Of a stretch of DNA of 64,000 nucleotides, positions 16,788 to 48,220 are shown one piece after another; position 1 is the first letter of the stretch; each line of letters begins with the position of its first letter. This DNA comes from Promethearchaeota archaeon. Lineage in GTDB: Archaea; Asgardarchaeota; Lokiarchaeia; Sigyniarchaeales; SOKP01. The position numbers were made by a program, and so were the translations under genes. The notes beneath the pieces were generated by a model that was given only the letters and a program-made list of their open reading frames with translations, was not told the origin of the DNA and did not search any database. Where the stretch lies: positions 64,001-128,000 of the forward strand of contig JAHLWP010000006.1 in assembly GCA_019057865.1 (NCBI GenBank), in the 5' to 3' direction.

Positions 16788-17489
16788 ATGATAAATATTG
16801 AAATTCGAAATCATCCAAAATTTTATAATGTCTATATATCAGGACCTCAAGAAAACTTAAAACTCTATACTAAAAATTTAACTTTAGGGAATAGAGTGTA
16901 TGGGGAGCGATTAATTAATTATAAGGGGATTGAATACCGAGAATGGGATCCCTTTAGGAGTAAGCTAGCAGCTATATTATTAGAAAATCCTATTACTAGC
17001 TTTTTAAATAGAAACTTAAAATGTTTGTATTTAGGAGCATCATCAGGAACAACAATTTCTCATCTTTCAGATATTGTTCATGACGGAATAATTTATGGCA
17101 TAGAATTTGCGGAACGAAGTATGAGGCAACTAATTCAAAATACGTCTAAAAGAGCAAATATTGTACCGATATTAGGAGATGCTCGGTATCCAGAAACTTA
17201 CTCAAATTCAATATTTACCGATATAGATTTAATTTATCAAGATGTTTCTCAACCAAATCAAGCTGAGATTGCTATTATTAATTCAAATTATTATTTAAAT
17301 GATGAAGGTACAATCATAGTAGCTATAAAATCTCAATCAATAGATAGTATTACTAAATCAGAAAAAATTTATAAACATGAGAGAGATATTTTTGAAAAAT
17401 CTGGTTATAAGATAATAGAAAGTATAAATATTCATAGATACGCTGCTAATCACATAGTTTTAATAGTGAAGAAAAAGGGAATTAGTTAA
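16788..17489 (+). CDS. flpA: Fibrillarin-like rRNA/tRNA 2'-O-methyltransferase
   Basis: VYGE; YREWDPFRSKLAA; LYLGASSGTT; DVSQPNQ. Confidence 0.96.
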   Translation: MINIEIRNHPKFYNVYISGPQENLKLYTKNLTLGNRVYGERLINYKGIEYREWDPFRSKLAAILLENPITSFLNRNLKCLYLGASSGTTISHLSDIVHDGIIYGIEFAERSMRQLIQNTSKRANIVPILGDARYPETYSNSIFTDIDLIYQDVSQPNQAEIAIINSNYYLNDEGTIIVAIKSQSIDSITKSEKIYKHERDIFEKSGYKIIESINIHRYAANHIVLIVKKKGIS

Positions 17490-18210
17490 AATATTCAGTA
17501 ATTTTTCTATTCTCTACTTCTTCATTTAAGATTTTTTTTGTTGTAACCCATGATTTCCTAGCAAACTGAGGGGGTTTTTTATTTTTTTTTATCCAATCTC
17601 TGAGGAAAGTTGTCGTTTTTATATCAGAAGGATAACCAGAGCCAAAATCACCAAACTTTTCTTTCAATTCTTCTATTAAATTATCTCTTATATCTTTTGC
17701 AATTATTGAACTTGCCGAAACTATAGGATAGGTATCATCAGCTTTATGTTTAGAAATAATTTGTCTTGGCATATATTCCAATAACATTCTAATTGATTCT
17801 CCGAATCTTTCTTCATTGACATCCGCAGCATCGATATATATACTATCTGGTTTTAACTCATTTATAATCTCAGCAATTTTTAATTCTTCTAGTCTGTTAA
17901 TAGATATTTTCCTCTCTTCTCTCTGATCGATCTCCTTAGCATTAATTACTATAACTTTATAAGAATGACAATTATCTTTTATTGCTTTAGTTAATTCACT
18001 TCTTCTTTTAGTGGATAATTTTTTAGAATCCTTAACACCAATTTTAGATAAAAAATCTAATTTTGACCTATTAAAACAAACACCACATAAAACCATTGGA
18101 CCTAAGACGGGCCCTTTTCGCATATAATTCGAATTGGACTATATTCTACCAGCCTCGTCTATTCCACAAACTATATCTAATTCTTCATTATGATTCTTGG
18201 ATGAGTTCAA
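17482..18210 (-). CDS. rnhB: Ribonuclease HII, split gene: exon 1 18210-18146, exon 2 18115-17482 (232 aa if spliced)
   Basis: Exon 1 (TTG start, inferred) MNSSKNHNEELDIVCGIDEAG; exon 2 (R)GPVLGPMV..DSKKL..DA..HKAD..GSGYPSD..PIP-like KITEYF; a 30-nt insert with in-frame TAG separates DEAGR from GP. Confidence 0.92.
18116..18145 (-). other. Putative 30-nt BHB intron in rnhB mRNA
   Basis: AATATAGTCCAATTCGAATTATATGCGAAA; bulges AG^A and AA^A; 4-nt central helix UGGU/GCGA (one mismatch); inner helix AUAUAG/UUAUAU. Confidence 0.82.
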
Positions 18211-19192
18211 TGAATTCCTCTTCATCATCAATTTCTTCTAAATTTTTAATTCTAACAATAGGAATTTTATTTTTTAAAAAAGTATCTGGGATTTTAATGT
18301 TGTTATTTACTATGAAGAGCGCAATTTTATGAAATAAGTCGGTAAACATTTTTAAGCATTTAGGATTTAACTGTTTAATCTTGTTTTGATCTTCACTAAT
18401 TCCTGAAAAAAGAGGATAAAAACCTTCTATTTTAGACTTGTCAGTTTTGGAATATAATGATAATTTGAAGGGTATTGAGCCTCTTTTATACCAATAGGAG
18501 GAAATCCCAATATCTTTGAATATTGATTGAACATGAGATTCAAAATCACTTAATTCGCTCTCCTCCATAAAATCACTTTGATCTATTTCGTATTTGAATT
18601 TCCAGTCAAAAATATTGATTTTTTTAAAAATTTCACTATCTTCTAAAATGTTTTTAATGTTTTCAGCTACTTTTTCAGAAGGATGCATACTTTCATTTTC
18701 ATAAGCACATACGGTTCTTTTTGTAACTCCAAGTTTTTCTGATAATTCTTTTCTCGTTATTGATTGCTTTTCTCGTAAGGTTTTCATCACATTGCCATTT
18801 ACAAATACTATCCCTCCCCCTCTCTTAGCAAGTATATAAGGATATATATTTTCATCTAAGATCTTTTCTAAAGTATTAAAAGTTATAAATGGCAATCCAT
18901 TCCTAATATAAATAGTATCATCTTCTAATTTTTGATATCGATTCCTAATTCCAATTAATAACGGTTTTGATTTTAGTATTATGGATAAAGATTTAATATC
19001 ATTAATTATATCTGGGGTTATATTATCAATATTCGGAAAAATTTTTAAGCTAAAAATTAAATCATTCTTTTTAACTAATATATCAAAACAAAATTTGTTT
19101 TTTTTTGAGGAAAAATTGTCTAAAGCAAATGTTTCGAACTTTGCCTTCCTTAATAAAATATTAATTTTCTGAAGAATCTGATCAATCATCAA
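18188..19192 (-). CDS. Archaeal Cro/C1-type HTH transcriptional regulator
   Basis: FCFDIL..K; YIRNGLP; KRGG; HTH SITRKELSEKLGVTKRTVCAYE. Confidence 0.88.
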   Translation of the reverse strand: MMIDQILQKINILLRKAKFETFALDNFSSKKNKFCFDILVKKNDLIFSLKIFPNIDNITPDIINDIKSLSIILKSKPLLIGIRNRYQKLEDDTIYIRNGLPFITFNTLEKILDENIYPYILAKRGGGIVFVNGNVMKTLREKQSITRKELSEKLGVTKRTVCAYENESMHPSEKVAENIKNILEDSEIFKKINIFDWKFKYEIDQSDFMEESELSDFESHVQSIFKDIGISSYWYKRGSIPFKLSLYSKTDKSKIEGFYPLFSGISEDQNKIKQLNPKCLKMFTDLFHKIALFIVNNNIKIPDTFLKNKIPIVRIKNLEEIDDEEEFIELIQES

Positions 19193-37360: not shown

Positions 37361-37970
37361 ATGGGAAGAAGAAAAAGGAAACAGCCAACATATAAAAGAG
37401 TTAAAAAAGTACCCAAAATTTTCACCTGCCCGGAATGACGAGATCGACTACTGATTTCTCCCTGAATGTGGTGAAAAAAGTGTAAAAGTTACTGATATAA
37501 AAAAGAAGGGTGCTTTTGCTACAGTAAAATGTGGGAATTGTGGATTAACCCAGGAAGTATTAGTGAATGCAATTTCAGAACCAGTAGATGCTTTTGGAGA
37601 TTTTATAGATATTCATTATGCAGATCAAGAACTCTTGAGATTAGAAAAAAGAGTTGCAAAATTGAAAGAAGAAGGTGAATGGGGTGAACTTGCATTTGCT
37701 TACTCTATATTGTCGGATCTTTGCAGAACGAAAGCAGCACTGTTATTAGAGGAAGATAATATCGATATGGACAAAGTTAATGACTGGAAAATGAAAGCTG
37801 AACAATATAAAAAGCTTAAAAAGGATGCTTTATTGAAACTTGATACAGAAGAATTAGAACGAGGTGTTAGAACAGATGAAGAGTCCTTATTTGCTGAAAG
37901 TGAAACAAAAATAAAGAAGGAGCGAAAAATAGAAGATATCTTTGATGATCCAGGATTTTTAGAATTTTAA
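37361..37970 (+). CDS. elf1: Transcription elongation factor Elf1 with C-terminal extension, split gene: exon 1 37361-37435, exon 2 37467-37970 (192 aa if spliced)
   Basis: Exon 1 MGRRKRK...PKIFTCPE; exon 2 CGEKSVKV...ATVKCGNCGL...SEPVDAFGDFID; separated by a 31-nt insert beginning TGA; TTTAAA ~25 nt upstream of the ATG. Confidence 0.92.
37436..37466 (+). other. Putative 31-nt BHB intron in elf1 mRNA
   Basis: TGACGAGATCGACTACTGATTTCTCCCTGAA; outer helix CUGC/GUGG; central CCGG/CCUG (one mismatch); bulges AA^U and AA^U; inner helix GA(C)GAGAUCG/UGAUUUCUC. Confidence 0.87.
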
Positions 37971-46735: not shown

Positions 46736-48220
46736 ATGAAATTTAAGATGAATGTTAATAAGATTGAAGAAAATATTTATGAAATAGCTCCTAAAACTTT
46801 AATGGTACGAATTCGAGGGAAAATTGAAAAATTTCAGATGAATGTACCAGTTCATATATACGCTAATGATTATATTTTAGAAAAAATAAGATCAGATCGA
46901 ACTTTAGATCAAATTACTAATGTTGCATGTTTATCTGGGATACAGAAGCACGCTATTGCACTTTCAGATGCTCATCAAGGATATGGATTTTGTATTGGAG
47001 GAGTTGCAGGTACAGACGCAGAAGATGGTATGATTTCTCCTGGGGGTGTAGGTTATGATATAAATTGTGGTGTAAGATTATTAAGATCTAATTTAATGCT
47101 TAATGATGTTCGAAATATACTTCCAAGTTTATTAAATACAATATTTAAAAATATTCCTTCAGGATTAGGATCTAAAGGTAAATTAAATATTAGTTATTCA
47201 GATTTAGATAATGTTTTAAACGATGGAATGAATTGGGCTCTAGATAAAGGCTATGCAAATGAAGAGGACCTTAAACATTGTGAAGAAGAGGGTTGTTTAA
47301 TGGGTGCTGATGCCAAATTAATATCCCAAAAGGCTAAACAACGAGCAATTAAACAGCTTGGATCATTAGGAAGTGGAAATCATTTTCTTGAGATTCAAAA
47401 AGTTGATGAAATCTATAACGAAAAGATCGCTAAAGAGCTAGGAATCATTAAGAAAAATCAGATCACTATTATGATACATACGGGAAGTAGAGCTTTAGGA
47501 CATCAAGTTTGTACAGATTCCCTACGGAACATTGAACAGGCAATGCATAAATATAATGTTAAGGTTCCAGATAGAGAATTAGCTTGTGTTCCAGCGAATA
47601 CTCCTGAAGCAAAAAATTACTTGTCTAGTATGGCATGTGCGGCTAATTTTGGCTTTACTAACCGTCAATTAATTACTCATTGGATAAGAGAATCGTTTCA
47701 AAATTCATTTAAAAAAGATTTTGATGCATTAGATTTACATTTAATTTATGGTGTATGTCATAATATTTTAAAGATAGAAGAACATGAAATTAATGGTAAA
47801 AAAATGAAATTGAACGTGCATCGAAAAGGGGCAACAAGAGCATTTCCCCCAGGACATCCAGATTTATCTAATGATTATAAATCGATAGGACAACCTGTTT
47901 TAATTCCGGGAACGATGGGTTCTGCTTCATATTTATGTGTTGGTAAACCAAAAGCTATGGATCTCTCATTTGGTTCTACTGCTCATGGTTCTGGAAGAAT
48001 GATGTCAAGAACAAAAGCTAAAAAAAAATATTGGGGTACACAAGTAAAAGAGGACTTAGCAAAAAAAGGAATTTTAGTAAAAAGCGCTTCAATGAAGATA
48101 TTAGCGGAAGAAGCGCCTGGAGCATATAAAGATATTGACCAAGTTGTACAAGTCAGTCATAATCTTGAAATTATTGAAAAGATTGTCAAACTAGTTCCTA
48201 TAGGTGTAGTGAAGGGTTAA
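46736..48220 (+). CDS. rtcB: tRNA-splicing ligase RtcB
   Basis: DAHQGYGF; GYDINCG; GSGNHFLE; HRKGAT; HGSGR; EEAPGAYK. Confidence 0.97.
   Translation: MKFKMNVNKIEENIYEIAPKTLMVRIRGKIEKFQMNVPVHIYANDYILEKIRSDRTLDQITNVACLSGIQKHAIALSDAHQGYGFCIGGVAGTDAEDGMISPGGVGYDINCGVRLLRSNLMLNDVRNILPSLLNTIFKNIPSGLGSKGKLNISYSDLDNVLNDGMNWALDKGYANEEDLKHCEEEGCLMGADAKLISQKAKQRAIKQLGSLGSGNHFLEIQKVDEIYNEKIAKELGIIKKNQITIMIHTGSRALGHQVCTDSLRNIEQAMHKYNVKVPDRELACVPANTPEAKNYLSSMACAANFGFTNRQLITHWIRESFQNSFKKDFDALDLHLIYGVCHNILKIEEHEINGKKMKLNVHRKGATRAFPPGHPDLSNDYKSIGQPVLIPGTMGSASYLCVGKPKAMDLSFGSTAHGSGRMMSRTKAKKKYWGTQVKEDLAKKGILVKSASMKILAEEAPGAYKDIDQVVQVSHNLEIIEKIVKLVPIGVVKG

What the first reader, a model, noticed from the sequence alone, without database searches (positions are those of the whole stretch)
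17482..18210. RNase HII is interrupted in the catalytic DEAGRG motif by a 30-nt BHB intron (18116-18145)
Seen: the ORF-track protein starts MRKGPVLGP and lacks the catalytic Asp/Glu. These are encoded in frame upstream (VCGIDEAG-R), separated by 30 nt containing TAG. Fold: UGGU[AG^A]AUAUAG..UUAUAU GCGA[AA^A]G. Splicing yields GGT AG|A GGG CCC, i.e. GRGP. The outer helix is weak, so this is a relaxed BHB. An ATG inside the intron could also give a catalytically dead isoform that retains the PIP box (inference).
Basis: partly seen in the sequence, partly recalled or inferred. Interest (0 to 1): 0.92.

Follow-up and report, generated by a model that had tools for sequence, protein, structure and literature searches.

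The report
tRNA-type mini-intron splitting Asgard RNase HII
The only RNase HII gene of this Asgard (Promethearchaeota) archaeon is broken inside its catalytic motif by a 30-base insert shaped like a tRNA intron, so its mRNA almost certainly has to be cut and rejoined before an active enzyme can be made; the papers I could search confirm that for only one archaeal gene, cbf5.

Summary
On the minus strand, rnhB reads GIDEAG-R, then 30 nt containing TAG (18145..18116), then GPVLGP. Removing those 30 nt gives GRGP.

It is not a misassembly: contigs from two other studies carry the insert. It is the genome's only RNase HII gene.

An insert sits at the same site in about 81 of 126 genomes of the same family with an rnhB match. 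Lengths are 28, 29, 30 and 31 nt, and the stop codons vary (TAA, TAG, TGA). None of the 18 genomes from sister families has it. Four nested relatives lack it exactly at the predicted junction.

Across 37 sequences the bulge-helix-bulge (BHB) model pairs 90% of cells, against 47% or less when the partners are slid. 51 cells carry compensatory changes, including changes in the 4-bp central helix that joins exon 1 to the intron's 3' end.

Exon 2 is under purifying selection. The genome has two EndA paralogues and RtcB.

No RNA data were available, so splicing is inferred and not shown.

The central helix, not the outer helix, is the weak part in this genome.

This scan has reported the rnhB intron before on other genomes. 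I found no paper on it.

The parts
18146..18228 (-). rnhB exon 1. It encodes the N-terminus up to GIDEAG plus the first two bases (AG) of the Arg codon, and it carries the catalytic Asp-Glu. The start codon is uncertain: ATG at 18228 or 18225, or TTG at 18210. It overlaps the end of the upstream gene in another frame.
   Evidence: Exon 2 aligns to solved RNase HII chains from residue 12 onward, so residues 1-11, including D7 and E8, lie on exon 1.
18116..18145 (-). 30-nt BHB intron containing an in-frame TAG (18141-18139).
17482..18115 (-). rnhB exon 2. It holds the last base (A) of the Arg codon, then GPVLGP... to the stop (TAA, 17484-17482).
   Evidence: Pfam RNase_HII E = 2e-44. PDB RNase HII E = 5e-45. 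dN/dS 0.10-0.42 against relatives.
18148..18151 (-). Central helix H, 5' strand (UGGU, exon 1).
   Evidence: It pairs with 18121-18118. Columns 17-20 with 48-51 of A2 are 90.5% paired, and 2 of the 4 pairs show double changes.
18118..18121 (-). Central helix H, 3' strand (GCGA, the intron's 3' end). This genome has a G.G mismatch here.
   Evidence: Relatives read ACCA, GUUA, GUCA, CCUA, CCCG and CCUU, matching exon changes UGGU, UGGG, CGGG and AGGG.
18145..18147 (-). 5' bulge A-G-A. The cut falls after the G (18146).
18114..18117 (-). 3' bulge A-A-A plus one extra unpaired G. The cut falls after the second A (18116).
18122..18144 (-). Inner hairpin h' of the intron, with a 9-bp register and a 5-nt loop.
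   Evidence: 8 of 9 pairs show compensatory changes and 88% of cells are paired.
18152..18160 (-). Outer helix h, 5' strand (exon 1, the GACGAGGC codons).
   Evidence: 93% of cells are paired. The bases are invariant at synonymous sites in intron-bearing genes only.
18105..18113 (-). Outer helix h, 3' strand (exon 2).
46910..48217 (+). RtcB RNA ligase gene, the enzyme expected to rejoin the exons.
   Evidence: PF01139 E = 1.7e-168 at G000:C75:110910-112217.

Best explanation
The 30 nt at 18145..18116 (minus strand) form an archaeal bulge-helix-bulge (BHB) intron inside the rnhB coding sequence. In the pre-mRNA, exon 1 (GACGAGGC) pairs with exon 2 (GCCCGUC) as the outer helix. The last exon-1 bases, UGGU, pair with the last intron bases before the 3' bulge as the 4-bp central helix. 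The intron's own hairpin forms the inner helix. The two-subunit splicing endonuclease EndA cuts after the second base of each bulge (AG^A and AA^A). RtcB then joins the exons to give ...GGU AGA GGG CCC..., which restores the DEAGRGP motif of RNase HII. Shown here: the anatomy, its conservation and covariation, the exact junction, purifying selection on the exons, and the presence of the enzymes. Inferred: that cleavage and ligation actually take place on this mRNA.
For: 1. An insert at the same site occurs in 77 genomes with internal stops, plus 4 with frame-shifting lengths, out of 126 same-family genomes with an rnhB match. None of the 18 genomes from sister families has it.
2. Lengths are 28, 29, 30 and 31 nt, and the internal stops are TAA, TAG or TGA, one or two per insert. 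No in-frame reading or stop-codon reassignment can rescue the gene.
3. In the BHB model on 37 sequences, 90.3% of cells pair, against 47% or less for slid partners. 51 cells carry double changes and 0 of 500 shuffles reach the covariation score (26 sequences).
4. The central helix covaries between exon and intron: UGGU/ACCA, UGGG/CCUA, CGGG/CCCG, AGGG/CCUU.
5. L043, L112 and L117 read AGT (Ser) if unspliced. Only the AG|A junction restores the invariant Arg.
6. Intron-less relatives nested within the intron clade (L033 at 84% amino-acid identity, L036, L040, L119) read GRGP exactly at the predicted junction. They have lost the synonymous-site constraint: GAT GAA GCA, against the invariant GAC/T GAG GCN of intron-bearing genes.
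7. Exon 2 has dN/dS of 0.10-0.42, with no frameshifts, across lineages whose dS is saturated.
8. This is the only RNase HII in the genome.
9. Independent DNA contigs carry the insert.
10. The genome has two EndA paralogues. One matches the catalytic C-terminal half and the other the N-terminal half of the fused two-unit enzyme. RtcB is present.
11. The cut position, between the 2nd and 3rd bulge residue, is the same rule reported for cbf5 introns (PMC2738675).
Against: There is no RNA evidence for this gene. No RNA run holds the locus. In this genome and its two closest relatives the central helix has a G.G mismatch (UGGU/GCGA), so only two Watson-Crick pairs and one G-U pair remain. The 3' bulge has a fourth unpaired base. 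The single-sequence fold is only z = -1.97. dN/dS against the nearest relative is 0.42, but on very few changes.
Confidence: 0.9

Rival explanations
1. Decaying pseudogene. The insert is a disabling insertion, and the cell either makes no RNase HII or makes only a truncated, catalytically dead protein from the ATG inside the insert.
For: The annotated ORF starts at that ATG. The central helix is imperfect in this genome. dN/dS against the nearest relative is 0.42.
Against: The insert has been kept at one site across a whole family while exon 1 (ICGIDEAG) and exon 2 stay intact. dN/dS is about 0.1-0.2 at large distances. The internal start is missing in 17 of 41 distinct introns. It is the only rnhB in the genome. 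A dead insertion would not show compensatory changes.
Confidence: 0.04
2. Translational recoding. The ribosome either reads through the stop, leaving the insert translated, or bypasses the 30 nt by hopping, as in phage T4 gene 60.
For: The insert is in frame in this genome. A stop codon and a hairpin follow the Gly-Arg codons.
Against: The stops are TAA, TAG or TGA, sometimes two per insert. Inserts of 28, 29 and 31 nt shift the frame. No matching take-off and landing codons would restore DEAGRGP: a Gly-to-Gly hop drops Arg-Gly, and an Arg landing on AGG lands out of frame (read). Hopping does not predict covariation between exon 1 and the intron's 3' end.
Confidence: 0.03
3. The insert is removed from the RNA, but by machinery other than EndA and RtcB, or the conserved hairpin serves another purpose such as a protein-binding or regulatory element.
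For: No enzyme assay was possible. The BHB is relaxed in this genome.
Against: The geometry is that of an EndA substrate: 3-nt bulges on opposite strands, a 4-bp helix between them, and cuts after the second bulge base. The enzymes are encoded in the genome.
Confidence: 0.03

Closest known systems
BHB intron in the cbf5 (pseudouridine synthase) pre-mRNA of Crenarchaeota (Aeropyrum, Sulfolobales, Desulfurococcales; PMC2738675 and the work it cites)
   Same: A short intron in a protein-coding gene, placed at or next to catalytic-residue codons. The BHB is relaxed, with cuts between the 2nd and 3rd bulge residues. The host has a hetero-oligomeric EndA. The distribution is patchy, with gains and precise losses.
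   Different: A different gene (rnhB) in a different phylum (Asgard / Promethearchaeota). Splicing of cbf5 was shown by cDNA and in vitro cleavage; here it is inferred from comparative data only.
Archaeal tRNA introns, including the heavily interrupted tRNA genes of Asgard archaea (bioRxiv 10.64898/2026.10.13.758758)
   Same: The same motif and the same presumed enzymes. That preprint reports two EndA paralogues in 44 of 60 Asgard genomes, consistent with what I see here.
   Different: The host RNA here is an mRNA. The exon half of the motif is made of codons (Asp-Glu-Ala-Gly-Arg and Gly-Pro-Val), so it is constrained by both the protein and the RNA structure.
BHB-flanked processing of rRNA precursors and of a Haloferax 5' UTR (PMC7714728)
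   Same: EndA acting on a non-tRNA substrate.
   Different: Those events do not join two halves of a coding sequence.

Membership tests
Archaeal BHB (EndA-spliced) intron | [quoted passage not shown] | tested here: met
   The 5' bulge is AGA. The central helix has 4 bp and is 90.5% paired across 37 sequences. The 3' bulge is AAA plus one extra unpaired G. In this genome the helix has one G.G mismatch, so this is a relaxed form.
Archaeal BHB (EndA-spliced) intron | Flanking helices: outer (exon-exon) and inner (intron hairpin) | tested here: met
   The outer helix has 8 pairs and is 93% paired. The inner helix has 9 pairs, is 88% paired, and 8 of its pairs show compensatory changes.
Archaeal BHB (EndA-spliced) intron | Cutting after the 2nd base of each bulge yields the functional product | tested here: met
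   The product is GRGP, identical to intron-less relatives. The junction is fixed by the AGT-bearing introns.
Archaeal BHB (EndA-spliced) intron | Host encodes the splicing endonuclease and RtcB ligase | tested here: met
   There are two PF01974 matches, 200 aa and 207 aa, both TIGR00324 endA. RtcB is present at E = 1.7e-168.
Archaeal BHB (EndA-spliced) intron | The intron is absent from the mature RNA | not testable with these tools
   No RNA run holds this locus. The scan of metagenome contigs for the spliced junction found only unrelated intron-less genes.
RNase HII (Pfam PF01351) | Full-length match to the family profile, including the N-terminal DEAG catalytic block | tested here: met
   Profile positions 1-199 match across the insert, E = 1.6e-45, with 1 TAG inside. 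Exon 2 alone gives E = 2e-44. PDB RNase HII chains align from residue 12.

The most novel reading that the evidence does not exclude
The AG|A site in the DEAGRGP codons of rnhB is a recurrent or transferable intron site shared by distant archaeal phyla. I saw it in the Asgard family, and in two Thermoproteota genomes with 16- and 23-nt introns at the identical junction. On this reading, rnhB is one of many Asgard mRNAs whose expression depends on the tRNA-splicing machinery, meaning routine mRNA splicing in the closest prokaryotic relatives of eukaryotes.
Probability: 0.4. Interest if true: 0.85.

Novelty: new member of a known kind. Interest (0 to 1): 0.72.

Why it matters
In the papers I could search, endonuclease-dependent splicing of an archaeal coding sequence has been confirmed only for cbf5, in Crenarchaeota (PMC2738675). 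Here a core replication and repair enzyme of an Asgard archaeon can be made only after such splicing, and the intron has persisted with covariation across a whole family.

There are three consequences:
- Gene callers truncate this gene and lose its catalytic residues.
- mRNA splicing by the tRNA machinery extends to the closest archaeal relatives of eukaryotes.
- The case shows how codons can double as the exon half of a splicing motif.

Earlier notes of this scan report the same rnhB intron, and many other such introns, on other Asgard DNA. This is therefore one more well-supported case of a wider, apparently unpublished phenomenon, not an isolated oddity.

Tried and rejected
- RNA evidence. 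No RNA holder is listed for the locus. Of the two possible RNA runs that I laid, one covers only 18317-18482, in the upstream gene, and the other covers nothing.
- Spliced-junction scan. I scanned metagenome contigs for the spliced junction together with the lineage-specific exon signature. The 5 hits are all unrelated intron-less rnhB genes from other lineages.
- Misassembly. Rejected, because independent contigs carry the insert.
- A second rnhB. None was found.
- Stop-codon reassignment, read-through and ribosome hopping. Rejected on the varied stop codons, the 28/29/31-nt variants and the lack of matching take-off and landing codons.
- A conserved dead isoform from the internal ATG. Rejected as a conserved feature.
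- A homing-endonuclease neighbour, a lead from earlier scan notes on other phyla. The upstream gene here is a PRK04140-type HTH regulator, and it is also present next to the intron-less relative L033.
- Other lineages. Thermoplasmatota, DPANN and bacterial hits that my motif search had skipped turned out to be uninterrupted; one (L099) is cut off by the contig end and could not be judged.
- Literature. Searches for an rnhB or Asgard mRNA BHB intron found nothing relevant.

Full report
**What is in the sequence.**
On the minus strand a single frame reads ...LDIVCGIDEAGRI*SNSNYMRKGPVLGP.... The mechanical ORF (17482..18123) starts at an ATG inside the interruption and lacks the catalytic Asp-Glu. 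Those residues are encoded upstream in the same frame (ORF 18139..18231). Canonical RNase HII reads GIDEAGRGP. Removing the 30 nt at 18145..18116 gives GGT AG|A GGG CCC, which is GRGP.

Exon 2 alone matches Pfam RNase_HII (E = 2e-44). It aligns to solved archaeal RNase HII chains from their residue 12 onward, so residues 1-11, with the catalytic D and E, lie on exon 1. The window has about 28% G+C. Its close relatives are filed as Promethearchaeota (Asgard) MAGs.

**Not an artefact, and not backed up by a paralogue.**
The genome is 4.26 Mb in 87 contigs and 99.7% complete. It has one RNase HII match, this one, spanning profile positions 1-199 with one TAG inside. The stretch occurs in metagenomes from 14 studies. 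A 3525-nt contig and a 2512-nt contig from two of those studies span the insert with 1 and 4 differences and no gap. One of those differences (18137, C to U on the coding strand) restores a pair of the intron hairpin.

**Comparative evidence.**
- In the same order, 77 genomes of the window's family have an rnhB match of 627-645 nt with one or two internal stops (TAA, TAG or TGA).
- Four more have matches that begin only after the interruption.
- That makes 81 of the 126 family genomes with a match. The 18 matched genomes of the three sister families have 603-630 nt and no stops.
- Read at nucleotide level, every insert sits at the same site. 40 of 44 distinct sequences have 30 nt, and the others have 28, 29, 29 and 31 nt.
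- The lengths that are not multiples of three shift the frame, and the stops differ in kind and number. Read-through, codon reassignment and a translated insertion are therefore excluded.

**Structure.**
The minimum-free-energy fold of the 81 nt around the site gives a 9-bp exon-exon helix, an internal loop and a 7-bp intron hairpin (-20.2 kcal/mol, z = -1.97). The internal loop resolves into BHB geometry as follows:
- Outer helix: exon 1 GACGAGGC pairs with exon 2 GCCCGUC.
- Central helix: UGGU (exon 1) pairs with GCGA (the last intron bases before the 3' bulge).
- 5' bulge: A-G^A.
- 3' bulge: A-A^A, plus one extra unpaired G.
- Inner helix: the intron's own hairpin.

On 37 distinct sequences this model pairs 90.3% of cells, against 29-47% when the 3' partners are slid by 1-3 columns. 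51 cells carry changes on both sides, and 0 of 500 shuffles reach the covariation score (26 sequences).

The central helix is the diagnostic part, because it joins codons to intron bases, and it covaries. The pairs seen are UGGU/ACCA (perfect), UGGU/GUUA, UGGU/GUCA, UGGG/CCUA, UGGC/GCUA, CGGG/CCCG and AGGG/CCUU. In this genome and its two nearest relatives the helix has a G.G mismatch, so the motif here is relaxed.

**Exact junction.**
In L043, L112 and L117 the base after AG is T, so the unspliced frame reads Ser. Only AG from exon 1 plus A from exon 2 restores the invariant Arg. A shift of one base in either direction gives Ile, Lys or Ser in one relative or another. The cuts therefore fall after the second base of each bulge. 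This is the rule reported for cbf5 introns (PMC2738675).

**Selection and history.**
Exon 2 has dN/dS of about 0.10-0.20 against relatives with saturated dS, and 0.25-0.42 against the nearest ones, on few changes.

The exon-1 bases that form the outer and central helices are invariant in intron-bearing genes, even at synonymous sites (GAG in 37 of 37). Intron-less relatives of the same family use GAT GAA GCA.

A maximum-likelihood tree of exon 2 places four intron-less genes inside the intron-bearing clade: L033 (84% identical to the window protein), L036, L040 and L119. This needs five changes, at least four of them forced by well-supported branches. The simplest account is one gain at the base of the family and four precise losses. 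The tree samples only part of the family.

**Machinery.**
The genome has two EndA paralogues. One has 200 aa, carries the Tyr/His/Lys pattern in its C-terminal domain, and matches the C-terminal half of the fused two-unit endonuclease model. The other has 207 aa, lacks the His, and matches the N-terminal half. This fits a two-subunit enzyme of the broad-specificity kind, as a recent preprint reports for most Asgard genomes (10.64898/2026.10.13.758758). RtcB lies in this window at 46910-48217.

**Rivals.**
- A pseudogene does not fit the conservation, the covariation or the single-copy status.
- Ribosome hopping has no matching take-off and landing codons that would restore DEAGRGP, and it does not predict exon-intron covariation.
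The ATG is formed by the end of the inner helix and the first base of the central helix.

**What is missing.**
There is no RNA evidence. No RNA run holds the locus. A scan of metagenome contigs for the spliced junction returned only unrelated intron-less genes. Splicing is therefore inferred.

**Comparison with what is known.**
The closest published case is the cbf5 intron of Crenarchaeota. That paper states that splicing had been confirmed for no other archaeal protein gene, though introns in others had been predicted. My searches found no report of an rnhB intron or of Asgard mRNA BHB introns.

Earlier notes of this scan describe the same rnhB intron on other Asgard and DPANN genomes, and other mRNA introns in this genome. 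One note reports a metatranscriptome contig lacking the 30 bases in another Asgard genome, which I could not check. Their lead of an adjacent homing-endonuclease gene does not apply here. The upstream gene is a PRK04140-type HTH regulator, and it also sits beside the intron-less L033.

**Verdict.**
This is a real, well-supported BHB intron in a protein-coding gene. It is a new member of the cbf5 kind, with splicing still to be shown on RNA.

Noticed in passing
L047:1465-1547 (Thermoproteota MAG, contig JAOZFT010000004.1) and L149 (G155:C50:4700-5450): Two related Thermoproteota genomes carry mini-inserts of 16 nt and 23 nt in rnhB at the identical junction (GGN AG|A ... AA|A GGA CCN). Each has a 4-bp or 3-bp central helix (AGGU/GCCU, GGGG/ACCC) and its own small hairpin. 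28 other relatives of those genomes have uninterrupted genes. The same intron site therefore occurs in a second phylum.
   Followed up: partly
window 37361-37600 (+), insert about 37436-37466: An Elf1-like zinc-ribbon gene reads MGRRKRK...KIFTCPE*, then resumes as CGEKSVKV... after about 31 nt. Removing them gives FTCPECGEK. This is a second candidate mRNA mini-intron in the window and it shifts the frame. I read it from the sequence only.
   Followed up: partly
window 46910-48217 (+): A full-length RtcB RNA ligase gene lies 29 kb from the interrupted rnhB.
   Followed up: partly
window 18188-18231: rnhB exon 1 overlaps the 3' end of the upstream PRK04140-type HTH regulator gene (18188..19192) in another frame. 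In two relatives (L015, L020) a stop lies between the conserved ATG-ATG and GIDEAG, so their start must be a GTG or TTG three codons before the Gly. The start codon of rnhB seems to move within the genus.
   Followed up: partly
window 18137: In contigs from two other studies the coding-strand C at 18137 is U. This restores a U-A pair of the intron hairpin that is a C.A mismatch in this genome.
   Followed up: no
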